NCBI GenBank assembly: GCA_902612605.1
Contig: CACMDY010000003.1
Location: forward strand, 41,253-105,252
DNA from: an uncultured Pelagibacteraceae bacterium
GTDB taxonomy: Bacteria > Pseudomonadota > Alphaproteobacteria > Pelagibacterales > Pelagibacteraceae
Length of the DNA: 64,000 bases
Reading direction: 5' to 3'
Part shown: piece after piece, positions 21,114-35,447 of the stretch
Layout: each line of letters starts with the position of its first letter
Numbering within the stretch: position 1 is the stretch's first letter
Notes under the pieces: generated by a model
The model's database searches: none
Told to the model about the DNA's origin: nothing
The model's input: only the letters and a program-made list of their open reading frames with translations
Translations under genes and position numbers: made by a program

Positions 21114-24017
21114 ATGCGGTTTAATTCAGATCAGATACAAAAAATTGGTAAAGAAATAAGCAGTAAAGTTGATGGAAAAACTTTATTCGATGAATTCTCA
21201 CGTGGAAGATACAGTACCGATGCTTCTGTATATCAAATTAAACCTCTTGGTGTAGTTCTTCCAAAAGATACCAATGATGTTTTAAGTTTAATGGAGTATT
21301 CACAAAAGAATTCCATACCTCTATTAGCTAGAGGTGGTGGAAGTTCTCAATGTGGCCAGACTGTTGGAGAAAGTGTTGTGCTGGATTACAGCAAACATCA
21401 AAATAAAATTTTAGAACTTAATGTTGAAGAAAAATATGTATGGGTTCAGCCAGGTGTCGTATTAGATCATCTAAATGCTTATTTGAAACCTCATGGTCTC
21501 TGGTTTCCAGTAGATGTTTCAACAAGCAGTAGAGCAACTATTGGAGGAATGTCAGCTAATAATTCCTGTGGATCTAGATCATTATATTATGGCAACATGG
21601 TTCATAACGTATTAGCAATTGAAGCAATATTAGATGATGGCTCTATATTTAATTTTGATCAAATAAATAAGAATTATTTAGCCACAAAGAACAATCAAGA
21701 TAGACTATATAAAATAATAGATAAATTTATCGATGTAAGACAACAGGTTGGAGGCGAAATTGATGCTAACTGGCCAACGACACAAAGAAGAGTTGGAGGA
21801 TATAACATTGATTTAATTGATCCAGAAGGATTTAATTCATCAAATCTTCTTGTTGGCTCTGAAGGAACATTGTCTTTATTTAATAAAATAAAATTAAAAT
21901 TATCAGAAATACCAAAGAGTAAAATTTTAGGTGTCTGCTACTTTGACAATTTCCATCAAGCAATGGAATTGTCTAAAGAGATTGTGAAATTAAAACCAAC
22001 TTGTGTTGAGTTGATGGACCAAAATTTATTAAATTTGGCAAAAGAAATCCCAATGTATGCTGGAGGTATAAAAAAATACATCAAAGGAAATCCTGAAGCT
22101 GTTTTGATGGTAGAATTTATTGATACCGAGAAAAGTGTATATGAAAAGAAAATAAAGGATCTAGAATATTTAGTTTTAAATCAAAACAAAAAAAATCAGT
22201 TTTCATATTACTCAGATTTATCAGAGCAGAAAGAAGTTTTTGAAATAAGAAAAGCTGGATTAAATATTTTGATGTCTATGAAAGGTGATAGAAAACCAGT
22301 TGCCTTCATTGAAGATTGTGCAGTTTCTCTAGAACACTTAGCTGAGTACACAGCAAGATTAAAAGAAATATTTAAAAAATATGGAACAAGTGGAATGTTT
22401 TATGCTCATGCATCTGTTGGAACACTTCACGTAAGACCAGTTTTAAATATGAAATCGGACAAAGATATACAAAACATGAGATCTATATCTGAAGAAGCTT
22501 TTGAAATGGTTAAAGATTATAAAGGTTCTCATTCTGGTGAACATGGAGATGGAATTGTTAGATCAGAATTCCATGAAATGATGTTTGGTAAAAAAATCAC
22601 AAATGCATTTGAAGAAATAAAAGATACATTCGATAGTAAAAACCTTTTAAATCCTGGAAAAATTGTTCGGCCATTTAAATCAAATGATAGATCTCTAATG
22701 AGATATAAATCAGGTTATCAAACTGAAAATATAGATACACATTATGATTGGTCTAATTGGGGTCAATTCTCTGATGCTGTTGAGATGTGTAATAACAATG
22801 GAGCTTGTAGAAAGTTAGATTCTGGTGTGATGTGTCCTTCTTACAGAGTAACTAAAGAGGAAAAAGATTTAGTTCGAGGTAGAGCAAATACTTTAAGATT
22901 AGCTTTATCTAACCAGCTCCCAGAAGGTTCATTTGCATCAAAAGAAATGTATGAAACTATGGAACTATGTGTCAGCTGTAAAGCTTGTCAAAGAGAATGT
23001 CCTATGTCGGTTGATATGGCTAAGATGAAATCTGAGTTTCTTTCTCATTACTATAAAAAATTTAGTATGCGTATTAAAGATAGAGTTATCTCAGATATGC
23101 CAAGACTTATTTGGTTATTAAAGATTGTTGCTCCAATATTCAACAAGGTTAAAAACCTACCTCTAATCTCAACAATTGTTGAAAAGTTTGGTTTTGCAAC
23201 AGCAAGGTCTATGCCTGAAGTTCAAAACCAGAACGCATTACGAGAGATTTACGAAAGTCAGACATTATCAGAGAATAAAGTAATTTTATTTGCAGATACA
23301 TTTAATATTAATTTTGAAAATGAAAATTTAGTTTATGCAATTAAAGTACTAAATAAATTTGGTTATCAAGCAATTATACCAAGTTTTGGAAAAGATAAAT
23401 TAAAGAGACCCCTTTGTTGTGGAAGAACTTATATCTCTTACGGTCAATTAGACAAAGCCTCGGAAGAGCTAAATAGGTTTAATGATTATGTTATACAAAA
23501 TAATTACATTGATTTACCAGTTGTAGGTATCGAACCATCCTGTTTACTAACATTTAACGATGAGTATCAGACTTTAAAAAATGTAAATAATAGAGAACAA
23601 ATTAAAAATAAATTTTATCTACTTGAGGAATTTATTTTAGAACAAATAAGAAATAACAATAATATTAAAGCTAATAAGTTTGATCAAAATGTATTAATTC
23701 ATGGGCACTGTCATCAAAAATCACAAGATAGAATGAAGGGGCTAACTAATCTTTTATCAGAATTAAATATTAATAATAAAATGATAGAGTCTAGTTGTTG
23801 TGGAATGGCTGGTTCATTTGGGTATGACAGTAAGACTTATGAAGTCTCCAAAAAAATGGCTAATCTTTCTTTAATACCTGCGATCAATAATAGTGATGAA
23901 AAAGATTTTATAGTTGCAAATGGTACAAGCTGCAGACATCAAATATCTGATTTATCTGAGAAAAAAGGTAAGCATGTCTCAGAATTATTATTTAAAATTT
24001 TTGAAACAGTTAATTAA
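21114..24017 (+). CDS. FAD-binding plus Fe-S-domain oxidoreductase (D-2-hydroxyacid dehydrogenase, GlcD-GlcF/YdiJ-type fusion)
   Basis: ARGGGSS, GSEGTL, HASVG.LH.RP, SGEHGDG, LNPGK, two CxxCxxCxxxCP-type ferredoxin motifs and CCG domains. Confidence 0.88.
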   Translation: MRFNSDQIQKIGKEISSKVDGKTLFDEFSRGRYSTDASVYQIKPLGVVLPKDTNDVLSLMEYSQKNSIPLLARGGGSSQCGQTVGESVVLDYSKHQNKILELNVEEKYVWVQPGVVLDHLNAYLKPHGLWFPVDVSTSSRATIGGMSANNSCGSRSLYYGNMVHNVLAIEAILDDGSIFNFDQINKNYLATKNNQDRLYKIIDKFIDVRQQVGGEIDANWPTTQRRVGGYNIDLIDPEGFNSSNLLVGSEGTLSLFNKIKLKLSEIPKSKILGVCYFDNFHQAMELSKEIVKLKPTCVELMDQNLLNLAKEIPMYAGGIKKYIKGNPEAVLMVEFIDTEKSVYEKKIKDLEYLVLNQNKKNQFSYYSDLSEQKEVFEIRKAGLNILMSMKGDRKPVAFIEDCAVSLEHLAEYTARLKEIFKKYGTSGMFYAHASVGTLHVRPVLNMKSDKDIQNMRSISEEAFEMVKDYKGSHSGEHGDGIVRSEFHEMMFGKKITNAFEEIKDTFDSKNLLNPGKIVRPFKSNDRSLMRYKSGYQTENIDTHYDWSNWGQFSDAVEMCNNNGACRKLDSGVMCPSYRVTKEEKDLVRGRANTLRLALSNQLPEGSFASKEMYETMELCVSCKACQRECPMSVDMAKMKSEFLSHYYKKFSMRIKDRVISDMPRLIWLLKIVAPIFNKVKNLPLISTIVEKFGFATARSMPEVQNQNALREIYESQTLSENKVILFADTFNINFENENLVYAIKVLNKFGYQAIIPSFGKDKLKRPLCCGRTYISYGQLDKASEELNRFNDYVIQNNYIDLPVVGIEPSCLLTFNDEYQTLKNVNNREQIKNKFYLLEEFILEQIRNNNNIKANKFDQNVLIHGHCHQKSQDRMKGLTNLLSELNINNKMIESSCCGMAGSFGYDSKTYEVSKKMANLSLIPAINNSDEKDFIVANGTSCRHQISDLSEKKGKHVSELLFKIFETVN

Positions 24018-24799
24018 ACTAAACTAGGAATAATTTTTCTTAAATCCATAGAAAGTTTAGGATTAATTTTTGAATAAATTACGCCCTTGCCTAATTTTTT
24101 TAATGCCAAAACTTTCCCATCTGGAGAAATAATCGTTGTATGACCAAACGTTTCTCTTTTAGGTGTGTTTTTTCCAGTTTGAGCTGGTGCAAAAATATAA
24201 CAAAAATTTTCAATCGCTCTTGCTCTTAAAAGTGGTAACCAATGTTTTTGTCCCGTAAACTTTGTAAAAGCTGATGGAACGGCTATAAAACTTAAATTTT
24301 TTTTTGATAAATTCCTATAAAGTTCAGGAAATCTTAAATCAAAACAGATTGTAAAACCTATTTTGCCCCAAGGTAAGTTGGCAGTGACTAATTTATTTCC
24401 TGCTTTAAAAGTTTTACTTTCTTTATGTTGTTCTTTATTTGGAATTTTAACATCAAACATATTAATTTTATCATAATATTTGATAATTTTTCCATTTGGT
24501 CCAACCAGTATAGATCTATTTCTGAGTTTGTTTTTAACCTTAACACAAATTGATCCGAGTAAAATCCATTTCTTATATTTTTTTGAAACTTCCCTAATTT
24601 TCTTCAAAATTGGATCTTTATTCATTTCATATGAATATTTAAAAAGTGTTTCTCTACTACTAGACATCAAAGAAGAGGTTTCAGGTGTAATAATTAAATC
24701 AGATTTATTTTTTATAGCTTCATTTACATATTTAACAATATCTTTGAAATTATTTTGATAATTTTCTCCACTAGATAATTGTATGCAAGCTATTTTCAT
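24014..24799 (-). CDS. Carbon-nitrogen hydrolase (Nit1/deaminated-glutathione-amidase-like)
   Basis: Catalytic triad motifs PE, YDKINMFD and ICFDLRFPE; also PSAFT and ARAIEN. Confidence 0.88.
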   Translation of the reverse strand: MKIACIQLSSGENYQNNFKDIVKYVNEAIKNKSDLIITPETSSLMSSSRETLFKYSYEMNKDPILKKIREVSKKYKKWILLGSICVKVKNKLRNRSILVGPNGKIIKYYDKINMFDVKIPNKEQHKESKTFKAGNKLVTANLPWGKIGFTICFDLRFPELYRNLSKKNLSFIAVPSAFTKFTGQKHWLPLLRARAIENFCYIFAPAQTGKNTPKRETFGHTTIISPDGKVLALKKLGKGVIYSKINPKLSMDLRKIIPSLV

Positions 24800-25473
24800 G
24801 TTTGAAATCCATATTTTTTTTCTAAATATTTAATAACATTATGAATTATAAAAGTCATAAACAAGTAAATACCTCCTGCCACAATAAATACCTCTACTGG
24901 CTTAAACGTTGTTGAAATTATATATTTAGCAACACCAGTTAAGTCCATAAGTGTGACTGTACTTGCTAGAGATGTTCCTTTAAGCATTAAAATAATTTCA
25001 TTTCCATAAGCTGGTAAAGATTGTTTTATTGCAATAGGAATCTGTATTTTTGTAAAAATAATTTTTGAAGGTATACCTAGGCTTCTTCCAGCTTCTAAAT
25101 ATCCAGGTTTTATTGTTTGAAAAGCTGATCTTAATATTTCTGAAGTATAAGCCCCAGTATTTAATGAAAATGCAATTATCGCGCACCAATATGGTTCTTT
25201 TAAAACTACCCACAAAAATGTTGTTCTTAAGTATTCAATTTGACCTAATCCAAAATATATTATGAAGATTTGAACTAATAAAGGTGTTCCTCTAAAAATA
25301 TATGAATACCCATAAGCAAATTTATTAATCAACTTATTATTATTCATCCTCAAGATTGCAAAACCTAACCCAATAAAAAGTCCAAGAATTAAAGATACAG
25401 ATAATAGTTTAAGAGTAATCAAAGTTGCGTTTAACAACTTAGGAAAACTATTAATCATTAATTCAATATCCAT
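24796..25473 (-). CDS. occM: Polar amino-acid ABC transporter permease (HisM/OccM)
   Basis: FRGTPLLVQIF, LNTGAYTSEILR, GNE.ILMLKGTSLAS motifs. Confidence 0.85.
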   Translation of the reverse strand: MDIELMINSFPKLLNATLITLKLLSVSLILGLFIGLGFAILRMNNNKLINKFAYGYSYIFRGTPLLVQIFIIYFGLGQIEYLRTTFLWVVLKEPYWCAIIAFSLNTGAYTSEILRSAFQTIKPGYLEAGRSLGIPSKIIFTKIQIPIAIKQSLPAYGNEIILMLKGTSLASTVTLMDLTGVAKYIISTTFKPVEVFIVAGGIYLFMTFIIHNVIKYLEKKYGFQT

Positions 25474-26165
25474 TAATAACCTTTGCTATATTTTGTTTCT
25501 AATCTGTTTAACAATTGCATACTTAAAAATGTTAGCATTAAGTATAAAACTGCTGCAAACGAGTAAAAAAATAATGGATCTCTAGTTGAGCCAGCCGCAA
25601 TATAGGATTGTCTCATTATTTCAACTAAACCCGTTACAGATATAAGAGAAGTATCTTTTAATGTAATTTGCCAAACATTACTTAAGTTTGGAATTGCTAG
25701 TCTTAGCATTTGAGGCAAAATTATTTTAAAGAAGTAAATATATTTATTAAAACCTAAAACTTTAGCAGCTTCGAACTGACCTTTATCAATTGATTGTAGG
25801 GCTCCTCTAAATACTTCAGTTGAGTAAGCTCCCGATATTATCCCTATTGAAAATGAACCAGTTAAAAAAGCATTAATTTCGATGTAATCATTATAACCAA
25901 ATATTGAAGCAACAAACATAATTGCTCCACTTCCACCAAAGAAAAATAAATAAATTACTAGTAGCTCAGGTACACCTCTAATAACAGTGGTGTAAGCATT
26001 ACCAATAGAATTAAGAAATTTGTTATTAGATAATTTTAATGGAGTAAATAAAGCAGCAAATATAAAGCCTATTATCATTGCGGTTATTGAAACCGCAATT
26101 GTCATTAAGGTTGCAAAGAATAATTCGTCTCCCCAACCTTTATCACCAAAATATAGAAGTTCCAT
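25473..26165 (-). CDS. occQ: Polar amino-acid ABC transporter permease (HisQ/OccQ)
   Basis: GWG N-terminal motif, IRGVPEL, GAYSTEVFRGA, GQFEAA and LKDTSLIS. Confidence 0.85.
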   Translation of the reverse strand: MELLYFGDKGWGDELFFATLMTIAVSITAMIIGFIFAALFTPLKLSNNKFLNSIGNAYTTVIRGVPELLVIYLFFFGGSGAIMFVASIFGYNDYIEINAFLTGSFSIGIISGAYSTEVFRGALQSIDKGQFEAAKVLGFNKYIYFFKIILPQMLRLAIPNLSNVWQITLKDTSLISVTGLVEIMRQSYIAAGSTRDPLFFYSFAAVLYLMLTFLSMQLLNRLETKYSKGY

Positions 26166-26171
26166 AATATA

Positions 26172-26191
26172 GGTGGCTAACTATAGCCACC
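26172..26191 (-). terminator. Hairpin between the amino-acid SBP and permease genes (weak terminator or stabiliser)
   Basis: Perfect 8-bp stem GGTGGCTA-ACTA-TAGCCACC, ending 6 nt before the permease ATG. The U tract is weak. Confidence 0.55.
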
Positions 26192-26204
26192 CATAAATAA
26201 TTTA

Positions 26205-27032
26205 TTACATAGAAGCGTCAAAACCAAAATGTTTTATAGCAAGCTTACTAATAATGCCATCATCTCTAGCTTTATCAATTGCTGCATTAAAATCATTTAA
26301 TAATTTCGAGTCACCTTTTCTAATACCAACTCCAACACCATTACCAAAATCTCCACCTGCAAATGTTGGTCCAGTTAATACAACTCCTTTACCAGATTTT
26401 TCTGCATAATCAGTAAAAGCAACAGCTGCAGCTAGTGCTGCATCTATTCTACCAGCAGATAAATCTAAGTTTACTTCATCTTGAGTTTTGTAAGTTCTAA
26501 TTTTTACATTACCCATTAAACCAGACTCTAAGAAGTTCTGGTGAATTGTTGCTGTTTGTACACCAATAGTTTTACCTTTAAAGGCTTTAGTCAAAACATC
26601 TAATGTTGCTTGTTCATCAGCACTGACGTCAGATAGATTTATAGCTGACATTGTTTTAAGACCTTCGTTTTTCGATCCTTTCATTACAGCTAGAGATGCA
26701 ACTTCATCAGCATAACCTTGAGAAAAGTTTATTGTTTTCATTCTTTCGCCAGTTATTGACATTCCAGCCATGATGGCATCAAATTTTCTTGAGACTAAAG
26801 CTGGTATCATTCCATCCCAGTCTTGCTCAACAATAGTACAATCATGATTCATTATTTTACATAATTCATTTGCTAATTCCACTTCAAAGCCAATCAAATT
26901 TCCTGCTGAGTCTTTAGAATTCCAAGGTGGATATGCACCTTCAGTTCCAATTTTAATTTGATCTGCAATTGAAGAAATTGTTAGGAATGATGATATTAAA
27001 ATACCAAGTCCTAATACTTTTAATTTTTTCAT
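26205..27032 (-). CDS. occT: Polar (basic) amino-acid ABC substrate-binding protein (HisJ/ArgT/OccT family)
   Basis: Signal peptide; IGTEGAYPPW, GFEVE, QDWDGMIPAL and AGMSITGER motifs. Confidence 0.88.
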   Translation of the reverse strand: MKKLKVLGLGILISSFLTISSIADQIKIGTEGAYPPWNSKDSAGNLIGFEVELANELCKIMNHDCTIVEQDWDGMIPALVSRKFDAIMAGMSITGERMKTINFSQGYADEVASLAVMKGSKNEGLKTMSAINLSDVSADEQATLDVLTKAFKGKTIGVQTATIHQNFLESGLMGNVKIRTYKTQDEVNLDLSAGRIDAALAAAVAFTDYAEKSGKGVVLTGPTFAGGDFGNGVGVGIRKGDSKLLNDFNAAIDKARDDGIISKLAIKHFGFDASM

Positions 27033-27090: not shown

Positions 27091-28131
27091 TTAATGATTT
27101 ATTGAAGAGGAAAAATTCCAAGAACAATCGAAACTTGGTATGTAAACTCTTGAAAGTTTTGTATTTCCAAAATTTTTGTTAAAAACATTTAACCAATTTT
27201 CAACTTGTTTTGGTTTTTTATCTTGGCTTCCAACTTGAGCAGTAATTACACCTTTAGGTTTTAAAATTCTTTCTAAAGATGACATATTTTTTGCAGCTAA
27301 ATCTATGCAAAATTGATCATCGTTAAGATCAACAAAAATTTGATCATAAGAATTATCTTTGACTGATTTAATGCTCTCAAATGCATCCCCCCAAACACAT
27401 TTAACTGAATTTTTTTCTGTCGCCTTTTCTCCTATTTTGCTTAAATGTTTATCACATACATCAACAACTTCAGGATCTAATTCATACCAATCTATAAATC
27501 CAAAATTTTGTGAAATACATTCTCTTGCTACACCACCGTCACCTCCACCGATAATTGCAGCTTTCTCTTTATTTGAATTCAAATTAAGACCAGAATTTAC
27601 AAAATTTGAGCTATATAAATGTTCATCACTCTCTGCAACTTGTATCTCATTATCAATAAATAAAGCTTTTCCAAACTGTTCTAAATCTAATATTTCAATA
27701 TATTGTCCTGCTTTGGATTTAAAATTTTCTAATACTTTATTTACAACATAAGATTTTTTTAATCCTGGTGAACTATAGTTATCATGATATAAATCAATCG
27801 TATCTCTGTTAAATTCCTTAATAATAATTTGTTTATGTTCTATTTCTTCTTTAATTACTTTAAGAGCAACTGATGGTGAAACTTTACCACAAGTAAAAAA
27901 ATCAAAGCTTATAATTTCATTTTCTGGGAAAGTGTGAAAGCTTATATGGCTTTCTGCTAACAGAGCTACCAATGTAAAACCTTGGGGCTCAAATTTATAT
28001 TTTGATATTTTTAAAACTGTTACTTTTGCTAATTTTGCAATTTTATAAACCAACTTTTCATAAAATGATGGATCATATTCTTTTTTAGTTCCAATGATAT
28101 CTAGAGTTATGTGTTCACCAACTTTTGTCAC
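27091..28131 (-). CDS. speDE: S-adenosylmethionine decarboxylase-spermidine synthase fusion (SpeD-SpeE)
   Basis: N-terminal pyruvoyl domain with FEPQG, LLAE|SHISFHTFPE and DFFTCG. C-terminal aminopropyltransferase domain with GGGDGG, YELDPEV, GDA and VDLND. Confidence 0.9.
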   Translation of the reverse strand: MTKVGEHITLDIIGTKKEYDPSFYEKLVYKIAKLAKVTVLKISKYKFEPQGFTLVALLAESHISFHTFPENEIISFDFFTCGKVSPSVALKVIKEEIEHKQIIIKEFNRDTIDLYHDNYSSPGLKKSYVVNKVLENFKSKAGQYIEILDLEQFGKALFIDNEIQVAESDEHLYSSNFVNSGLNLNSNKEKAAIIGGGDGGVARECISQNFGFIDWYELDPEVVDVCDKHLSKIGEKATEKNSVKCVWGDAFESIKSVKDNSYDQIFVDLNDDQFCIDLAAKNMSSLERILKPKGVITAQVGSQDKKPKQVENWLNVFNKNFGNTKLSRVYIPSFDCSWNFSSSINH

Positions 28132-28134
28132 CTA

Positions 28135-28779
28135 TTAACCTCTTTTATAATTTTTAGCTTTTTTTAAAACTTTATTCATTTCCTTTATAGAAAGAATTTT
28201 TGGCTTTCCAAGCTTAAGTGCGGTTATATACTGTAAACTCAAATTTTCAACTTCTTGCGCTAATTCAAAAGCATCAGGTAAATTTTTACCAAATGCAATC
28301 TGACCGTGATTTGCAATCAAACAGGCTTTTCTATTATTCAAAGCTTTTATTATATATTTTGAAAGCTCTCTTGTTCCATAAGTTGCGTATTTTGCACATT
28401 TAATATCGTTACCTCCTGCGAGTGCAACCATGTAATGAAAAGCTGGAATAGGTTTTTTGTGGACAGATAAGGCTGTTGCATTAGTTGAATGTGAGTGAAC
28501 TATTGCTTGAGCATCTTTCTTTTTAATGTAAATATCTTGATGAAATCTCCATTCTGATGAAGGTTTATATTTTTTTTCATATTTTCCATCTAGACTTACA
28601 AACACTATATCTTTAACTTTTAATGATGAATATTTTTTTCCTGATGGGGTAATTAAAAAACCATTTTTATATCTAACTGATATATTTCCAGATCTTAAAG
28701 CTGATAATTTTTTATCATTAAGCATTTTGGAAAACTTAATAACATCATTTTTCTTTTTGTTAGTTTTTGAATAGACCAT
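28135..28779 (-). CDS. Class II (Zn) aldolase, FucA-type; probable 5-(methylthio/deoxy)ribulose-1-phosphate aldolase (Ald2/DrdA-like)
   Basis: SGNIS, ITPSG, PSSEWRFH, HSHS, AFHYMVA, YATYGT and NHG motifs. Directly downstream of mtnA. Confidence 0.8.
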   Translation of the reverse strand: MVYSKTNKKKNDVIKFSKMLNDKKLSALRSGNISVRYKNGFLITPSGKKYSSLKVKDIVFVSLDGKYEKKYKPSSEWRFHQDIYIKKKDAQAIVHSHSTNATALSVHKKPIPAFHYMVALAGGNDIKCAKYATYGTRELSKYIIKALNNRKACLIANHGQIAFGKNLPDAFELAQEVENLSLQYITALKLGKPKILSIKEMNKVLKKAKNYKRG

Positions 28780-29839
28780 TTAAACCTTCGGTAGAGGCTT
28801 CGCATATACCTTTTTCTGTTACAAATGCTGTAACATACTTAGCTGGTGTTACATCAAAAGCTAAATTTAATGATTTGCTCTTTTCGGGATATATTAAAAC
28901 TTTATCGACTTTATTATCTTTGTTAATTCCATCCACATGAGAAAGTTCTTTTGGATCTCTTTCTTCTATTGGAATATCTTTAGAGTTTTTTAAATTCCAA
29001 TCTATAGTTGAACTTGGTAAAGCAACATAAAAAGGTACCTTATTATCATGAGCAGCAAGAGCTTTTAAATATGTGCCAATTTTATTGCACACATCTCCGT
29101 TAGATAATGTCCTATCTGTTCCAACAATACACATATCGACCTGTCCTCTTTGCATTAATATTCCACCTGTATTATCTGCTATAATTGTATTTGGAATTTC
29201 TTCTTCATTAAGTTCATATGATGTGAGGTTTGCTCCTTGATTTCTTGGCCTAGTTTCATCTACCCATACATGTATTGGTATTCCTTTTTTATGTGCATGA
29301 TAAATAGGAGAAGTTGCCGTTCCCCAATCTATTGTAGCTAACCAACCTGCATTGCAATGTGTGAGAATATTTACGGTATCTTTCTTTTTATTATATATAT
29401 CTTCAATAATATTTAATCCATTTTTACCAATACTTTCACAAAAGCCCTCATCTTCTTTACAAATTTCTTTAGCTTCATTGAGTGCAACATTAAATAAATC
29501 TCCAGGTTCAACAAATGATAGTTTATTGTTCATTCTATGCACTGCCCATTGAAGATTTATAGCCGTTGGCCTAGAAGCAACTAATTCTTCCGAACTTTTT
29601 TTTATAAAATCTAAACTGTTATTTTCTTTTATAGCTAAAACTAGTCCAAATGCAGCTGTACCTCCGATTAATGGAGCACCTCTCACCTCCATTGTTTTTA
29701 TGGCATTTATCGCGTCTTTAACTGAACTTAATTCTTTTATTATAAATTTATGTGGAAGCTTTGTTTGATCTATTATTTTTACAACTTGTTTTTCTTCATC
29801 AAACCAAATTGTTTTATATTCAACGCCATTAATTTTCAT
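28760..29839 (-). CDS. mtnA: S-methyl-5-thioribose-1-phosphate isomerase
   Basis: VRGAPLIG, SRPTAINL, LTHCNAG.LAT, ETRP..QGA.LT and GTDR...NGD..NKIGT motifs. Confidence 0.95.
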   Translation of the reverse strand: MKINGVEYKTIWFDEEKQVVKIIDQTKLPHKFIIKELSSVKDAINAIKTMEVRGAPLIGGTAAFGLVLAIKENNSLDFIKKSSEELVASRPTAINLQWAVHRMNNKLSFVEPGDLFNVALNEAKEICKEDEGFCESIGKNGLNIIEDIYNKKKDTVNILTHCNAGWLATIDWGTATSPIYHAHKKGIPIHVWVDETRPRNQGANLTSYELNEEEIPNTIIADNTGGILMQRGQVDMCIVGTDRTLSNGDVCNKIGTYLKALAAHDNKVPFYVALPSSTIDWNLKNSKDIPIEERDPKELSHVDGINKDNKVDKVLIYPEKSKSLNLAFDVTPAKYVTAFVTEKGICEASTEGLNGLFKN

Positions 29840-31278
29840 TATTTTAAATTATCAATAAAATATTTACTAGCAATGGCAGCAGTTTCTCCACCATTGTCAC
29901 CACCAGTTGTCGTACCTCTTTTTCCACATTTTTTATAAATCTTCACATACATTTTTCTGTATAATTTGTTTGCTTCTCCTGATTTAGCAGATGCTTTTTC
30001 AAAATCTTTTTGCCACTTTTTAATATCCATTTTAAATTCTTTTTTCATAACATCAGATAGACTTTCAGATATAAAACCCTGGTCATTTAATTTCCAACCA
30101 TCTGGGACGTACATTTCACATTTATTGAAGTGAACACATCCTTTACATTTACTTGCCGGAGAATCTGTATAAAAATCATGGTGCCATCCATCTTTTACAA
30201 TTACCTCGACATCTGCACCTGCTTTTTTTAATCTTTCAGCATAATCTTCACAAAATCTTGCTGGTGTATAATCATCTGCACCTCCAAGTAAAAATAATAA
30301 TTTAGTTTTTGTAGGAGTTGGATTTTCAAATCTCATATTAAAACAATCTGGAGCCATGGGTAATGATGCAAGAAAATATCTATCTTTTCCAATTACTGCC
30401 TCTGAAAATTTTTTTTCAGCTGCCATGTATGAAGCTGTTCCACCTCTTGATAAACCAGTAATTCCTAATTTTGTAGCATTAACGCGAGGATGCTTATCTA
30501 ATATATCGTAAGCAACTAATGCATCCAATTCTCCAGCGTTAATTGAGACTTTGCCTTGATTTTTGTGAACATTCTCTGTTCCCCTGCTTGTAAAATTATC
30601 TATCTCAAAAATACCTATATTATTTTTTAATAATTGATTTTTAAAATCATTACGCCAAGACTGAAGGGGATTTGTAAACTCGCTGGGCCCTCCACTACTA
30701 TGCACAGTCACAACAACTGGTAAATTTTTTCCCTCTTTTGGTAAAATTAACTTTCCAGATACTTCAACTGGAGAATTAATATAAGATCCATTTATGATTA
30801 CCAGAGGAATACCTGGATTGTAACTTGTAAATTTAATTATTTCTTCACTTGCCTCACTTAAATACTTTAAAGGGGTGAAATGTGCAGGACGATCAACTTT
30901 AAAAAACCTACCTTTGCACCTCCACGGTTTTTCAAATGGCATTCTAGCTTTTAAAGATGCTTCATTTCCATTAATAAATTCACCTTTAATTTTTAATTTT
31001 TCTGAGCCCCACTCCCATTTCCAACTTTTTGTAATAGAAACCTTATTATCTTTAATTGTACCAACAAATTTTATATTTTCTCTTCCCCAGTTCTTTTGTT
31101 CAAAAGGTCCTAATTGAAATTTATTATTTTCAACATTTACTATATAAGAAGACTCATACCATTCATTTCCACCTTGTTTGCAACCAAGATCTATTTTCCA
31201 TGAATTGGGATATTCCTCAGCCGTAAGATTATTATTCCAAAGTAATGATAAAATAATTAGAATTATAATTTTTTTCAT
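29839..31278 (-). CDS. Exported alpha/beta hydrolase (dienelactone-hydrolase-like) with an extra N-terminal domain
   Basis: Signal peptide; oxyanion HSSGG, nucleophile GLSRGG, acid GGADDY, His in GWHHDF; 8 Cys. Confidence 0.75.
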   Translation of the reverse strand: MKKIIILIILSLLWNNNLTAEEYPNSWKIDLGCKQGGNEWYESSYIVNVENNKFQLGPFEQKNWGRENIKFVGTIKDNKVSITKSWKWEWGSEKLKIKGEFINGNEASLKARMPFEKPWRCKGRFFKVDRPAHFTPLKYLSEASEEIIKFTSYNPGIPLVIINGSYINSPVEVSGKLILPKEGKNLPVVVTVHSSGGPSEFTNPLQSWRNDFKNQLLKNNIGIFEIDNFTSRGTENVHKNQGKVSINAGELDALVAYDILDKHPRVNATKLGITGLSRGGTASYMAAEKKFSEAVIGKDRYFLASLPMAPDCFNMRFENPTPTKTKLLFLLGGADDYTPARFCEDYAERLKKAGADVEVIVKDGWHHDFYTDSPASKCKGCVHFNKCEMYVPDGWKLNDQGFISESLSDVMKKEFKMDIKKWQKDFEKASAKSGEANKLYRKMYVKIYKKCGKRGTTTGGDNGGETAAIASKYFIDNLK

Positions 31279-32204
31279 TTTATTCGTGAAGCGATGTATT
31301 CTTTAATTGTTGGATTATAATACTGAAAACAAAGTCCAACATCCATATTATGACCCTTTTTTACTGGTTCCTCCCAGTCATCTCCTTTTCTCTTACATCT
31401 CTTTCCATTAATTTTATAATTTTCTGAAATTATTATTCTTTTCATTCCAGGAATTTCTTCTAACCAATCAGATAATAATCCTTCATATTTATCCTTAGGA
31501 TGTGTGAAGGCTAATATAGGAACTTTTAAATTATTTTTAATTTCGTCATTCATCTTTTGTCGAACATCATGAGGTCCTTGATTTTTTTTTCTAAATTTAG
31601 CCATTGCTTTTTCTACACCATTTTTCTTTACTTTATATTTTGAAGACAATTTTCCAAAACATGCTTGCATATAAGATATGCCTCCACCCACCTTATCTGG
31701 GTACCTGGACATAAACAATAACGTGGTTAAACCACCACAAGAATGTCCTGTAACAAAAACTTGTTTTCTTGGTACTCCCGCATCTACAAATTTTTCAATT
31801 AATTCTAAATTTAATTCTACTCTTTTATCTAATATATGCTTACCTTCATAAATTTTTGGTTGAGGCTTTAAATACCACCAATCCTTTTTTTTAGACATAT
31901 CTCCTCTAAGATGATTTGAGCATAAATTATAAACCATTATTTTTTTTCCATTAACCTCTTGGTCTATCAAAGATGCATGATTTCTTAACATTGATACCCA
32001 TGTACAATTTTTTGTGGTATCATTTTCGTCTTGTCCGTGATTATAAATTAAAATAATTTTATTTTTAGGATCCTTAATTTCAAAATTCTTAATCAATCTA
32101 ACCTCTTTATTAATGAATCCGCTTTCATTAATCTTATCGTTAGGTCCTGCATAAGCTAGAGTTGAAAATAATATAAAAGTAAAAATTAGTGATATCTTTC
32201 TCAT
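31275..32204 (-). CDS. Exported alpha/beta hydrolase of unknown substrate
   Basis: Signal peptide; YNHGQ, nucleophile elbow GHSCGG, candidate Asp in HPKDKY and His in KGHNM; 6 Cys. Confidence 0.72.
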   Translation of the reverse strand: MRKISLIFTFILFSTLAYAGPNDKINESGFINKEVRLIKNFEIKDPKNKIILIYNHGQDENDTTKNCTWVSMLRNHASLIDQEVNGKKIMVYNLCSNHLRGDMSKKKDWWYLKPQPKIYEGKHILDKRVELNLELIEKFVDAGVPRKQVFVTGHSCGGLTTLLFMSRYPDKVGGGISYMQACFGKLSSKYKVKKNGVEKAMAKFRKKNQGPHDVRQKMNDEIKNNLKVPILAFTHPKDKYEGLLSDWLEEIPGMKRIIISENYKINGKRCKRKGDDWEEPVKKGHNMDVGLCFQYYNPTIKEYIASRIK

Positions 32205-33076
32205 TTTTTTAAAAGTATCCTTCCTGCTACTGTTTTAAGTTTATCTTTTGTTTTTTGTGTTCTTTTTTCTGGGGCTGTAATTATAGCTACATCTAAACAA
32301 TTATTAGTTGGATCATTAGGATCTATGTGATTTTCAAAGTTCTCTATCAAATTTTTAATCATATTTTTTGCTTTTGCTGCATTGTCTAAAAGTACTTTTA
32401 TTACTTGTTGAACGTCAACATTTTCATGATCTGGATGCCAGCAATCATAATCTGTTACCATCGATACTGAAGCATATCTAATTTCTGCTTCTCTTGCTAG
32501 CTTAGCTTCTGGCATATTTGTCATTCCAATAACATCTGCTTTCCATGATCTATATAGATTTGACTCTGCTAATGTAGAGAATTGTGGACCTTCCATGACG
32601 ACATAAGTTCCACCTTTTTGAAAAGGTATATTTTCTTTTTTAATAGCATCTTCGCAAGCATTCATTAGCCCACTTGAAGTTGGATGTGCCATTGATACAT
32701 GTGCAACAATCTCATCATCAAAAAAGGTTTTGTTTCTTGCAAAAGTCCTATCAATAAACTGATCAACAATAACAAATTTACCTGGAGGTAAATCTTCTTT
32801 TAAAGATCCGACAGCTGAAACAGAAACTATGTCAGTGATTCCGAGTTGTTTAAGGGCGTCTATATTGGCTCTAAAATTTATTTTTGAAGGAGAAATGAAA
32901 TGACCTTTTCCGTGTCTTGGAAGAAAATAAATTTCTTTATTATTGTATTTTGCCTTTAAAATTAAATCAGACGGTTTTCCCCAAGGTGTGTTTAAATCTA
33001 ATGTTTCCCTATCTTTAAACTCTTCAACATCATAAAGACCGCTTCCGCCGATAATTGCCAATTTATTATTTGCCAT
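32201..33076 (-). CDS. mtnP: S-methyl-5'-thioadenosine phosphorylase
   Basis: IIGGSG, PRHG, EGPQFSTLAES, IGMTNMPEAKLARE and TDYD motifs. Confidence 0.95.
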   Translation of the reverse strand: MANNKLAIIGGSGLYDVEEFKDRETLDLNTPWGKPSDLILKAKYNNKEIYFLPRHGKGHFISPSKINFRANIDALKQLGITDIVSVSAVGSLKEDLPPGKFVIVDQFIDRTFARNKTFFDDEIVAHVSMAHPTSSGLMNACEDAIKKENIPFQKGGTYVVMEGPQFSTLAESNLYRSWKADVIGMTNMPEAKLAREAEIRYASVSMVTDYDCWHPDHENVDVQQVIKVLLDNAAKAKNMIKNLIENFENHIDPNDPTNNCLDVAIITAPEKRTQKTKDKLKTVAGRILLKK

Positions 33077-33088
33077 AATACATTTTAG

Positions 33089-33096
33089 ATTATAAT
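33089..33096. promoter_or_regulatory. Candidate shared (bidirectional) -10 element for mtnP and apt
   Basis: The palindrome ATTATAAT gives TATAAT on both strands inside the 28-nt divergent gap. Confidence 0.4.
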
Positions 33097-33104
33097 TAAG
33101 TTTT

Positions 33105-33632
33105 ATGGATTTAAAAGAACATATTAGATCAATTAAAGACTATCCTAAAAAAGGAATTCTTTTCAGAGATATAACAACACTTATAAAAAATGAAAAGGCA
33201 TTCAAAGAATGTATTAACCAAATTGTTGAAAGATCAAAAAAATTCCAGTTTGATAAAATTGCAGCTGTAGAATCTAGAGGCTTTGTTTTTGCATCAGCTA
33301 TTTCTTATATACTTGATAAACCGTTCATAATGTTGAGAAAAAAAAATAAATTACCTGCTGATGTTCATTCAGTAGACTTTGAACTTGAGTATGGAACAGC
33401 AACAATAGAAGTCCATAAAGATTCTTTTGACGAAGGTGATAAAGTCTTAATTATAGACGATTTAATTGCTACTGGCGGCACTGCAGAAGCTGCTGCTAAA
33501 TTAATAGAGATATCAAAAAGCAAGGTTGCAGGTTTTATTTTTGTAATTAATTTATTTGATCTTGGTGGTACTGAAAATCTTTTGAAAAAGGGTTATGAAG
33601 TAGAAAATCTTTTAGATTTTCCTGGACATTAA
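33105..33632 (+). CDS. apt: Adenine phosphoribosyltransferase
   Basis: DYPKKGILFRDI, ESRGF, LEYGT and PRPP motif IIDDLIATGGT. Confidence 0.96.
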   Translation: MDLKEHIRSIKDYPKKGILFRDITTLIKNEKAFKECINQIVERSKKFQFDKIAAVESRGFVFASAISYILDKPFIMLRKKNKLPADVHSVDFELEYGTATIEVHKDSFDEGDKVLIIDDLIATGGTAEAAAKLIEISKSKVAGFIFVINLFDLGGTENLLKKGYEVENLLDFPGH

Positions 33633-34477
33633 TTTGCTGTCATTATTGCTTGAAAGGGACCACTTCCAATCCAAATTGAGTCTGCGCCCGTGTTTGATAA
33701 ATGCATACCCTCTCCAACATTAAATGTCATACTTAAAGAAGTTGTTGCTCCAGTAACTATGATAGGATCTGCAAATTTTACTAGACCTTCTAGCTTTACA
33801 ACTTCACCTGTGTTAGCTGCTCTATGTTCGTTACTATCAACTAAATATCCAACAATACTCGCTGTTGTTCCATTTATATTATCAACTTCAGCCTTTGACG
33901 AGAATGCATCGTCATGTGCACCAAATTGAGCTAATGTTTCAACAAATTTTCCTGGTGTTATAGCGCTTGAACCGCAAACAGAATTTCCAGTATGAGTGCT
34001 ACCTTTTGCATGTGTTCCAGAGCCAGCTTTTGTTCCACAAAAAACTCCAGTTCCACTGGATGTTCCTGTTTTAGCACCACTAAGCTCGCCTGCCCATGTT
34101 AAACCAAAGGTATTATCCATGTAAGCATATCCATGAGTATAAGTTCCATTTGGAGGTCGTGTATAAGTTCCATCAAGAACAATTTCAGCTCCTTGAGTTA
34201 CAGCTGCAGTAGCCCCACTTGAATTATTAAACACTTGAGAACAAGGAGTTAAAACAACTGTAGATGATGTTGTTGCTTCAGTTGGGGCACTAGTACATAA
34301 ATACAGTTTATAAATTACTATCTCATATTCAGCAGGTGCTGTATCACAACCACTGTTAATATCACTTTCTGATACAACTCCTGAAGATATCGTGCAAGCT
34401 TCAGCTTTATTAGCATTAAACATTTCAAAAATAAAAATTGTAGATAAAACTAAAAATAAATACTTAATATTTTTCAT
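33629..34477 (-). CDS. Exported Ser/Thr/Gly-rich hypothetical protein with 6 Cys (predicted beta-rich)
   Basis: Signal peptide ending AEA. Translationally coupled to the upstream barrel gene (TAA-ATG with an AGGAGG SD). No family recognised. Confidence 0.8.
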   Translation of the reverse strand: MKNIKYLFLVLSTIFIFEMFNANKAEACTISSGVVSESDINSGCDTAPAEYEIVIYKLYLCTSAPTEATTSSTVVLTPCSQVFNNSSGATAAVTQGAEIVLDGTYTRPPNGTYTHGYAYMDNTFGLTWAGELSGAKTGTSSGTGVFCGTKAGSGTHAKGSTHTGNSVCGSSAITPGKFVETLAQFGAHDDAFSSKAEVDNINGTTASIVGYLVDSNEHRAANTGEVVKLEGLVKFADPIIVTGATTSLSMTFNVGEGMHLSNTGADSIWIGSGPFQAIMTAN

Positions 34478-35326
34478 TTAAAATCCTCCTGCCTTAACAG
34501 TAAAACCTGCTCCTTTTTTCTTAATTACATTTTCTCTTCTAACCTTTTCATGCATTCTATCTTTCATGGAAATTCTTTCAAAGGCATCACTACTAAATAG
34601 AGAAGTGCCAGGATTTTTTATACTATTGCTATACTTAAGATTGATAAAACTTTGATCATTGTGATGATCGTAATTAGTATGACCAATTTCAAATGATAAC
34701 CCAGAATTTGGTACTTTAATCTGAGTAGAGATTTCTAAACCTTGAAAATCTTTTCCACCAGAAACTTCAAAATCGAAAGCTTTCAAATAAGCTTTCATAG
34801 ATGGTATATATGGAAGATGTGCACCTAACTCAACATCGAAACCATCAATAGCCTCTTCATTTTTGTTATCTTTTCCTTTTTTATTAGAGCTTTGGGCAAA
34901 ATACTGATTGTAATTTAAATCAAGAATAGAAGATTTAATCTCAGCACCAATGCTAAATCTTTGGTGCTCATAATCAAATTCATAATCATAAAAAGCATTT
35001 ATACCAAATAATATACTTTCATCATCAGATAAATATCTTTGTCCAAGTCCGAAATTAAATGTTTCTCTGTCACTGTCGTGTAAAAATAATGATCCTTGGA
35101 AAAAAGATAAATCTGAGCTATCTTCTGAAAATATCTTAAATGTTTGTATTCCAATTTCTGGTTTAATAGTTTCAATTTTTTTTATTGAAAAATCTGTATT
35201 TTCAAAATTCTCCTCCAAAAAACTTTCTAAAGAAGAATAAAATCTATCTACTACTTCATCTACTTTAGCAAAAGAAGCTGAGATAAAAAGCAAATTAAAT
35301 ATAAGAATTTTTAATAAAAATTTCAT
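34478..35326 (-). CDS. Inverse-autotransporter (intimin/invasin) beta-domain protein without a passenger
   Basis: Signal peptide. N.GLGQRY...LFGINAFYDY...HQRFSIGAE...N.Y...DGFDVEL...LPY.P and a terminal KVRREN pattern resemble the intimin/invasin barrel and linker. Ends in Phe. Confidence 0.8.
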   Translation of the reverse strand: MKFLLKILIFNLLFISASFAKVDEVVDRFYSSLESFLEENFENTDFSIKKIETIKPEIGIQTFKIFSEDSSDLSFFQGSLFLHDSDRETFNFGLGQRYLSDDESILFGINAFYDYEFDYEHQRFSIGAEIKSSILDLNYNQYFAQSSNKKGKDNKNEEAIDGFDVELGAHLPYIPSMKAYLKAFDFEVSGGKDFQGLEISTQIKVPNSGLSFEIGHTNYDHHNDQSFINLKYSNSIKNPGTSLFSSDAFERISMKDRMHEKVRRENVIKKKGAGFTVKAGGF

Positions 35327-35370: not shown

Positions 35371-35447
35371 TGGTAGCGGGAAGTGGGATCGAACCACTGA
35401 CCTCGGGCTTATGAGTCCCGCGCTCTAACCAACTGAGCTACCCCGCC
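35371..35447 (-). tRNA. tRNA-Met (anticodon CAT), most likely elongator
   Basis: Reverse complement GGCGGGGTAGCTCAGTTGGTTAGAGCGCGGGACTCATAAGCCCGAGGTCAGTGGTTCGATCCCACTTCCCGCTACCA folds as a cloverleaf. 77 nt, TTCGA T-loop, encoded CCA. Confidence 0.95.

What the first reader, a model, noticed from the sequence alone, without database searches (positions are those of the whole stretch)
27091..33632. Complete DHAP-shunt-type MTA/5'-deoxyadenosine salvage module
mtnP, mtnA and a FucA-type class II aldolase lie in one operon with speDE, and apt is divergent. No mtnB/W/X/C/D is in the window. This is the gene set of the DHAP shunt characterised in Rhodospirillum rubrum, Rhodopseudomonas palustris and the Bacillus/E. 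coli 5-deoxyribose pathway. It cleaves MTRu-1P to DHAP plus (2-methylthio)acetaldehyde, or 5-deoxyribulose-1P to DHAP plus acetaldehyde. For a lineage that depends on reduced sulfur, this route recovers adenine and carbon but releases a volatile organosulfur compound, a possible marine source of methylthio-ethanol/acetate or methanethiol.
Basis: partly seen in the sequence, partly recalled or inferred. Interest (0 to 1): 0.62.

Follow-up and report, generated by a model that had tools for sequence, protein, structure and literature searches.

The report
SAR11 methylthioadenosine disposal (DHAP shunt) operon
This ocean bacterium (SAR11) makes spermidine and, in the same operon, most likely breaks down the sulfur-containing waste nucleoside through the known three-enzyme "DHAP shunt"; related strains carry a different enzyme, or only a nucleosidase, at exactly this spot.

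Summary
The genes overlap or abut, and apt is divergent 28 bp away.

The 99.3%-complete genome (Pelagibacter/SAR11) has no MtnB, MtnC, MtnD, RuBisCO-like protein, MtnN or MtnK. It has no fucose genes and only this one class II aldolase. The aldolase keeps every FucA catalytic residue. Its nearest non-SAR11 relatives mostly sit directly behind mtnA. An MtnP-type DHAP shunt is therefore well supported by context, though no enzyme activity was tested.

In 151 Pelagibacterales genomes the slot between apt and speDE holds one of three mutually exclusive cassettes:
- mtnP-mtnA-FucA-like aldolase: 57 genomes.
- mtnP-mtnA plus a 677-aa aldolase/short-chain-dehydrogenase fusion: 16 genomes.
- a short nucleosidase only: about 22 genomes.

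mtnA never occurs without one of the two aldolases. Relatives with 94% identical flanks have exactly the aldolase gene swapped for the fusion.

The pathway is known, but no searchable paper links it to SAR11. The fate of the sulfur fragment is open. MetY is present, so re-use through methanethiol is possible.

The parts
33105..33632 (+). apt, adenine phosphoribosyltransferase. Divergent from mtnP with 28 bp between the start codons. It recycles the adenine released by MtnP.
   Evidence: TIGR01090 200.8 bits, above cut-off 185.85. The sequence of the spacer was read. Adjacent to mtnP in nearly all SAR11 loci and co-directional with it in the second family.
32201..33076 (-). mtnP, 5'-methylthioadenosine phosphorylase. 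It is the only PNP_UDP_1-family protein in the genome, so it is also the only candidate for cleaving 5'-deoxyadenosine.
   Evidence: NF006492 443.2 bits, above cut-off 437, and TIGR01694 311.6 bits, above 274.85. A single PF01048 hit in the genome.
31275..32204 (-). Exported alpha/beta hydrolase, 309 aa, with GHSCG nucleophile elbow. Variable cargo inside the operon.
   Evidence: Only weak Pfam Hydrolase_4 and Abhydrolase_2 hits, below cut-offs. A hydrophobic N-terminus. Absent from relative L034 and present at 93% identity in L047. Diverged copies (25-61%) sit in the same operon in other lineages.
29839..31278 (-). Exported alpha/beta hydrolase of the dienelactone-hydrolase type, 479 aa, with GLSRG elbow. 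A recent insertion.
   Evidence: PF01738 DLH 25.7 bits, above cut-off 21. The block 29867-31230 is missing in the nearest type-A relative L047. A 33%-identical paralogue lies on contig C1.
28760..29839 (-). mtnA, 5-methylthioribose-1-phosphate isomerase.
   Evidence: TIGR00512 411.5 bits, above 279, and NF004326 446.8 bits, above 271. 56% identical to MtnA of the mtnK-mtnA-aldolase cluster of E. coli S88.
28135..28779 (-). FucA-like class II aldolase, 214 aa. Predicted to be a 5-methylthioribulose-1-P / 5-deoxyribulose-1-P aldolase (Ald2-type).
   Evidence: PF00596 167 bits. 47% identical to E. coli FucA and 39% to E. coli S88 Ald2. N29, T/S43, G44, S71, S72, E73, H92, H94, Y113, H155 and Y209 are kept. 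The only class II aldolase in the genome. In the nearest non-SAR11 relatives mtnA lies directly upstream in 24 of 37. This gene alone is swapped for the fusion gene in close relatives.
27091..28131 (-). speD-speE fusion (S-adenosylmethionine decarboxylase plus aminopropyltransferase). It is the producer of MTA.
   Evidence: PF02675 93 bits, PF01564 84 bits and TIGR03330 96.5 bits, above 75.65. The motifs AESHISFHTFPE (pyruvoyl serine) and GGGDGG are read directly from the sequence. Found in 85 of 104 high-quality Pelagibacterales genomes. The SAR11 fusion is already described (PMC8437039).
24014..27032 (-). Conserved downstream neighbours: a polar-amino-acid ABC binding protein, two permeases (no ATPase) and a Nit1-like amidase. 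They are probably not part of the pathway.
   Evidence: Syntenic in same-genus loci.
35371..35447 (-). tRNA-Met(CAT), which marks the edge of the variable region. In relatives it directly follows apt.

Best explanation
This is a self-contained operon that makes MTA and then dismantles it.

Proposed steps:
1. SpeDE decarboxylates SAM and transfers the aminopropyl group to a diamine, releasing 5'-methylthioadenosine (MTA).
2. MtnP phosphorolyses MTA, and probably also the 5'-deoxyadenosine made by the radical-SAM enzymes. The products are adenine plus 5-methylthioribose-1-P (or 5-deoxyribose-1-P).
3. Apt returns the adenine to AMP.
4. MtnA isomerises the sugar phosphate to the ribulose-1-P form.
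5. The FucA-like class II aldolase cleaves it to DHAP plus 2-(methylthio)acetaldehyde (or acetaldehyde).

This is the MtnP-type DHAP shunt of Rhodospirillum rubrum and Rhodopseudomonas palustris.

Shown here: gene identities, operon structure, absence of every alternative route in the genome, conserved linkage, and mutually exclusive replacement by another aldolase.

Inferred: the substrate of the aldolase, the use of 5'-deoxyadenosine, and everything downstream of the aldehyde.

FucA-type aldolases make and cleave the (3R,4R) D-erythro configuration, which is that of D-ribulose-1-P derivatives. This is established knowledge about DHAP-dependent aldolases and was not tested here. It explains why a FucA-like enzyme fits the step.
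For: - Family assignments are above curated cut-offs for MtnP, MtnA, Apt and SpeD.
- The genes overlap or abut.
- The genome (99.3% complete) has one class II aldolase and no ARD. It has no MtnC above cut-off, no RuBisCO-like protein and no second PNP-family protein. It has no MtnK and no FucI, FucK or FucP.
- All FucA catalytic and phosphate-binding residues are kept.
- In 151 Pelagibacterales genomes mtnA occurs in 73. That equals the 57 genomes with this aldolase plus the 16 with an aldolase/SDR fusion. The two aldolases never occur together, and mtnA never occurs without one of them.
- Against a relative whose flanks are 93-94% identical at the nucleotide level, homology stops at 28126 and resumes at 28779. 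Only the aldolase gene is exchanged.
- In a second family and in two further marine lineages, apt-mtnP-mtnA-fusion is one overlapping operon. In a third marine lineage the fusion gene is convergent with mtnA.
- Of the 37 nearest non-SAR11 aldolases, 24 have mtnA directly upstream and co-directional, one more has mtnA nearby on the other strand, and none has fucI. In the tree the SAR11 clade (100/100) sits among these.
- At least three radical-SAM genes supply 5'-deoxyadenosine.
Against: - No enzyme activity was tested.
- The aldolase is below every NCBIfam cut-off. It is closer to E. coli FucA (47%) than to the Ald2 of the E. coli S88 mtnK-mtnA cluster (39%), so sequence alone cannot separate Ald2 from FucA.
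- No aldehyde reductase or dehydrogenase is linked to the operon. Only two unlinked FucO-like Fe-ADH genes exist.
- The aldolase tree's deep branches are poorly resolved.
Confidence: 0.8

Rival explanations
1. The main role of the route is to use exogenous MTA or 5'-deoxynucleosides as a source of carbon, purine and perhaps sulfur, as in extraintestinal E. coli. On this view, cleaning up the cell's own by-products is secondary.
For: E. coli with the shunt grows on these nucleosides (PMC10986504). Prochlorococcus excretes MTA (bioRxiv 10.1101/2024.02.09.579562). SAR11 needs reduced sulfur and can use methanethiol (PMC8437039). MetY is present.
Against: The cluster is welded to the internal MTA producer speDE. 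No nucleoside transporter is linked to it. No enzyme is known that frees methanethiol aerobically from the C2 fragment. This role does not exclude the disposal role.
Confidence: 0.12
2. The aldolase is a general ketose-1-phosphate aldolase for another substrate, for example ribulose-1-P from ordinary nucleoside breakdown, or fuculose-1-P. On this view its position next to mtnA is historical.
For: 47% identity to E. coli FucA with all catalytic residues. 171 bits to the haloarchaeal ribulose-1-P aldolase model NF053831.
Against: There is no fucI, fucK or fucP. The score is below the NF053831 cut-off of 300. Co-occurrence with mtnA is perfect across 151 genomes. Another aldolase takes its exact place in relatives.
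Confidence: 0.05
3. The protein is an MtnB-type dehydratase, and it starts a methionine-salvage branch whose later enzymes are unrecognised.
For: MtnB belongs to the same Pfam family. Weak partial hits to the MtnB models (67 bits).
Against: The scores are far below the MtnB cut-offs (137 and 226), and only residues 5-109 align to the MtnB models. There is no MtnC, MtnD, MtnW or MtnX in the genome. The alternative cassette is a RhaE-type aldolase fused to a dehydrogenase, which fits cleavage followed by aldehyde chemistry.
Confidence: 0.03

Closest known systems
MtnP-type DHAP shunt of Rhodospirillum rubrum and Rhodopseudomonas palustris (MtnP, MtnA, Ald2; PMC5893883, PMC13474568)
   Same: The same three enzyme families. 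In R. rubrum they are also in one operon. It is an alphaproteobacterial host. There is no kinase step. The predicted products are DHAP plus 2-(methylthio)acetaldehyde or acetaldehyde.
   Different: Here the genes are fused into one operon with the MTA producer speDE and faced by apt. No nitrogenase-like methylthio-alkane reductase and no RuBisCO-like protein is present. The host is an aerobic marine sulfur auxotroph, whereas published surveys describe mostly terrestrial hosts. I had no R. rubrum Ald2 sequence, so identity to it was not measured.
E. coli ExPEC DHAP shunt (Pfs, MtnK, MtnA, Ald2) and Bacillus thuringiensis DrdK-DrdI-DrdA
   Same: An MtnA homologue (56% to E. coli S88) followed by a FucA-like aldolase. 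PGAP also names the S88 aldolase 'L-fuculose-phosphate aldolase'.
   Different: Those routes start with a nucleosidase plus a kinase. This genome has neither. The aldolase is only 39% identical to S88 Ald2, and the match to DrdA (6BTD) has E = 4e-36.
E. coli L-fuculose-1-phosphate aldolase FucA (PDB 1FUA)
   Same: 47% identity, the same length, and all catalytic, zinc-binding and phosphate-binding residues.
   Different: There are no fucose isomerase, kinase or permease genes in the genome. The protein scores below the FucA equivalog cut-off (204 against 400). F206 of the C-terminal tail is Ala here.
RhaEW / YuxG bifunctional rhamnulose-1-P aldolase and lactaldehyde dehydrogenase (PMC3870299)
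   Same: This is the family of the 677-aa fusion that replaces this window's aldolase in 16 of 151 relatives.
   Different: It is not present in this genome. It is barely alignable with the window's aldolase. In SAR11 it is linked to mtnA, not to rhamnose genes.

Membership tests
DHAP shunt, MtnP variant | MTA phosphorylase MtnP present | tested here: met
   NF006492 443 bits, above cut-off 437.
DHAP shunt, MtnP variant | MTR-1-P isomerase MtnA present and linked | tested here: met
   TIGR00512 411 bits, above 279. It overlaps the aldolase gene by 20 bases.
DHAP shunt, MtnP variant | Class II, FucA-like aldolase with an intact catalytic set, genomically tied to mtnA | tested here: met
   Residues. 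Linkage.
DHAP shunt, MtnP variant | Aldolase cleaves MTRu-1-P and 5-deoxyribulose-1-P to DHAP plus aldehyde (EC 4.1.2.62) | not testable with these tools
   This needs an enzyme assay.
DHAP shunt, MtnP variant | An alcohol dehydrogenase reduces the aldehyde to 2-(methylthio)ethanol | tested here: inconclusive
   There are two unlinked FucO-like Fe-ADH genes (about 30% identity). The responsible enzyme is also unknown in the model organisms.
Universal methionine salvage pathway (MtnB-C-D or MtnW-X) | MtnB dehydratase, enolase-phosphatase or RuBisCO-like enolase, and acireductone dioxygenase | tested here: not met
   MtnB model 67.5 bits, below 137. No ARD. MtnC 18.9 bits, below 128. No RuBisCO-like protein.
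L-fucose catabolism (FucA proper) | FucA equivalog score and partner genes fucI, fucK and fucP | tested here: not met
   TIGR01086 204 bits, below 400. No tblastn hit for FucI, FucK or FucP.
SpeD-SpeE fusion aminopropyltransferase | AdoMetDC domain with the self-cleavage serine, fused to a spermidine-synthase domain with GGGDGG | tested here: met
   Domains. Motifs read from the sequence. The SAR11 fusion is reported as characterised in PMC8437039.

The most novel reading that the evidence does not exclude
One chromosomal slot in SAR11, between apt and speDE, exists in three interchangeable states:
- A FucA-type aldolase.
- A RhaEW-type aldolase-dehydrogenase fusion.
- A short nucleosidase only.

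These states have been swapped repeatedly by recombination. Each would send the methionine-derived methylthio group to a different product: 2-(methylthio)acetaldehyde or -ethanol, 2-(methylthio)acetate, or methylthioribose. Co-existing SAR11 populations would then release or recycle different organosulfur by-products. The fusion state would be an undescribed third architecture of the DHAP shunt.
Probability: 0.35. Interest if true: 0.7.

Novelty: new member of a known kind. Interest (0 to 1): 0.48.

Why it matters
SAR11 is the most abundant bacterial group in the ocean and cannot reduce sulfate. Every spermidine it makes costs one methionine sulfur atom. If that sulfur leaves through the DHAP shunt, SAR11 either loses it as a small methylthio compound or recovers it by steps nobody has identified. 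Either outcome bears on marine organosulfur fluxes and on SAR11's sulfur budget.

Published surveys place the shunt mainly in terrestrial bacteria. No searchable paper mentions it for SAR11.

The three-state locus offers a natural experiment. Cultured strains with different cassettes can be compared directly.

Tried and rejected
- Rfam scan of the whole window. It found no SAM/SAH riboswitch, only tRNA-Met.
- Promoter and terminator scan. Fewer promoter-like sites were found than in shuffled sequence, so it is uninformative in this AT-rich DNA.
- I tested whether the downstream C-N hydrolase is N-carbamoylputrescine amidase, which would link it to polyamine synthesis. It is not: it is Nit1-like, and AguB scores 67 bits against a cut-off of 410.
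- I looked for a duplicated apt 3' end around the insertion between apt and tRNA-Met. No convincing repeat was found.
- The paper by North et al. 2020 (DOI 10.1111/mmi.14459) is not held, so its species list could not be checked.
- BLASTP of the window's aldolase against the fusion protein gave only a 22-residue match, so the replacement is not by an orthologue.
- I did not fold the aldolase. 47% identity to a solved FucA with all catalytic residues kept makes a model uninformative about substrate choice.
Full report
**What is there.**
The window comes from a 1.36-Mb genome that is 99.3% complete and has about 30% G+C. Its relatives are named Candidatus Pelagibacter or Pelagibacteraceae. The minus strand of 27091-33076 carries six tightly packed genes:
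- mtnP, 33076..32201
- a 309-aa gene, 32204..31275
- a 479-aa gene, 31278..29839
- mtnA, 29839..28760
- a 214-aa class II aldolase, 28779..28135
- a 346-aa speD-speE fusion, 28131..27091

apt (33105..33632) runs the other way, and only 28 bp separate the two start codons. MtnP, MtnA, Apt and the SpeD domain all score above curated NCBIfam cut-offs. The fusion carries the pyruvoyl-serine motif and GGGDGG.

**Is any other route for MTA present?**
No. The genome holds one Aldolase_II protein, which is this one. It has no acireductone dioxygenase and only an 18.9-bit HAD hit to the MtnC model, whose cut-off is 128. It has no RuBisCO-like protein. It has a single PNP_UDP_1 protein, MtnP, so there is no MtnN/Pfs. 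tblastn with E. coli S88 MtnK finds nothing. The canonical pathway and the MTA-isoprenoid shunt are therefore absent. The kinase-type entry to the DHAP shunt is absent as well.

**What is the aldolase?**
- Its best solved relative is E. coli FucA (E = 2e-53). B. thuringiensis DrdA (6BTD) follows at 4e-36.
- It is 47% identical to K-12 FucA. It is 39% identical to the aldolase of the mtnK-mtnA-aldolase cluster of E. coli S88, which PGAP also calls 'L-fuculose-phosphate aldolase'. FucA and the S88 aldolase are 58% identical to each other.
- 'Ald2' is therefore not a sequence-defined family. FucA-like enzymes have been recruited to this job more than once.
- All residues known to matter in FucA are conserved in five SAR11 genera-level representatives: N29, T/S43, G44, S71, S72, E73, H92, H94, Y113, H155 and Y209.
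- The MtnB models give only partial, sub-threshold hits.
- FucI, FucK and FucP are absent from the genome.

**Comparative evidence.**
I searched 151 Pelagibacterales genomes with the aldolase, MtnA, SpeDE and the PNP family, and then with a protein found in the process.
- SpeDE is in 85 genomes.
- MtnA is in 73.
- The FucA-like aldolase (63% identity or more) is in 57.
- The 16 MtnA genomes without that aldolase all carry a 677-aa class II aldolase/short-chain dehydrogenase fusion. It scores 902 bits on NF006192, above the cut-off of 639, and is related to RhaD_aldol-ADH/RhaEW.
- The two aldolases never co-occur, and mtnA never occurs without one of them.
- About 22 further genomes have none of mtnP, mtnA or an aldolase. 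Where the locus was read, a 174-195-aa MTA/SAH-nucleosidase-like gene lies between apt and speDE, or beside apt where speDE is absent.
- Each genome with a match has one kind of PNP-family gene, either MtnP or the short nucleosidase.

**The swap is exact.**
A relative (L034) has flanks 93-94% identical to the window at the nucleotide level. Against it, homology ends at 28126 and resumes at 28779. Only the 652-bp aldolase gene is replaced, by 2143 bp carrying the fusion gene on the opposite strand. On a SpeDE tree the cassette types are interleaved. Well-supported branches force at least five changes of the fusion state. Two caveats apply: the fusion loci were deliberately over-sampled, and a single flanking gene can itself recombine.

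In a second Pelagibacterales family, apt-mtnP-mtnA-fusion forms one overlapping, co-directional operon. Two further marine metagenome lineages (59-61% fusion identity) show the same operon. In a third lineage (51%) the fusion gene is convergent with mtnA, as in the same-genus genomes. Two barely alignable class II aldolases thus alternate behind MtnA. This is the strongest in-silico argument that the step after MtnA is an aldol cleavage.

**Outside SAR11.**
The 37 nearest aldolases (44-55% identity) come from Alpha-, Beta- and Gammaproteobacteria and one myxobacterium. In 24 of them mtnA lies directly upstream and co-directional. One more has mtnA nearby on the other strand. Several also have mtnP and apt, and none has fucI. 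Some of the remainder are on short contigs. In the tree the SAR11 sequences form a 100/100 clade inside this mostly mtnA-linked assemblage. E. coli FucA and Ald2 fall on the other side of the midpoint root. Deep branches are weak.

**Mechanism.**
- Shown: the gene set, the operon, the absence of alternatives, and the linkage.
- Inferred: SpeDE makes MTA. MtnP releases adenine, which Apt salvages, and MTR-1-P. MtnA gives MTRu-1-P. The aldolase gives DHAP plus 2-(methylthio)acetaldehyde.
- 5'-Deoxyadenosine from at least three radical-SAM enzymes has no other exit. The published shunt handles it about as well as MTA (PMC13474568).
- The aldehyde's fate is open. There are two unlinked FucO-like Fe-ADH genes.
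- MetY is present (NF006004, 665 bits, above 636). SAR11 is reported to use methanethiol as a sulfur source (PMC8437039).
- Another report of this scan places a methanethiol oxidase in the same window. I did not test that.
- No enzyme is known that liberates methanethiol aerobically from the C2 fragment (PMC5893883).

**Known or new.**
The DHAP shunt is well described (PMC5893883, PMC6079011, PMC10986504, PMC13474568). The SAR11 SpeD-SpeE fusion is also known (PMC8437039). Full-text searches found no paper that combines the DHAP shunt with SAR11 or Pelagibacter. None combines it with an aldolase/SDR fusion. A published survey says hosts of MtnP-MtnA-Ald2 are mostly terrestrial.

After I had found the fusion and the three-way pattern, I looked at earlier notes of this scan. 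Several agents had reached the DHAP-shunt reading for related SAR11 genomes and had flagged the fusion variant. That is agreement between AI readers, not independent evidence.

**Verdict.**
This is a new member of a known kind of pathway. It has real but moderate interest because of the organism and the open fate of the sulfur.

Noticed in passing
window 29839-32204; also L035, L036, L041, L045, L047, L064, L065, L074, L076: Exported alpha/beta hydrolases recur inside the mtn operon of different SAR11 lineages. Identities range from 25% to 93%, and they sit either between mtnP and mtnA or between mtnA and the aldolase. Close relatives lack them. They may be cargo in a hot spot or have an unknown link to the pathway.
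   Followed up: partly
L044:7048-9522, L045, L040 (other SAR11 genomes): A DUF1015 protein (367 aa) and a TrpB-like PLP enzyme (453 aa; NF009057, 724 bits) are inserted on the opposite strand beside mtnA. They lie between mtnA and the aldolase in L044 and L045, and between mtnA and the fusion gene in L040. A TrpB-like enzyme could in principle condense a thiol with serine. This was not examined.
   Followed up: no
L053:7820-8344, L143:4768-5304, L144:6067-6618: The nucleosidase of the third cassette is only 174-195 aa. It matches just positions 50-228 of the PNP_UDP_1 profile and falls below all MtnN cut-offs. It is an unusually short MTA/SAH-nucleosidase-like protein.
   Followed up: partly
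window 33629-35326: The secreted 282-aa protein and the intimin-like beta-barrel lie in a 1.7-kb block between apt and tRNA-Met. Relatives L034 and L047 lack this block, and there the tRNA follows apt directly.
   Followed up: partly
window 24014-27032: A polar-amino-acid ABC binding protein and two permeases, without an ATPase gene, run into a Nit1-like (deaminated-glutathione-amidase-like) C-N hydrolase. The block is conserved next to speDE in the genus. In other genera the amidase alone follows speDE.
   Followed up: partly
G031:C1:802722-803790 and G146:C2:224421-225086 (relatives): mtnA in one relative and the aldolase in another each contain an in-frame TAA. This suggests occasional decay of the cassette.
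   Followed up: no
G000 contig C8:32865-33296: A FucU/RbsD-like mutarotase (38% identical to E. coli FucU) exists although no other fucose gene does.
   Followed up: no
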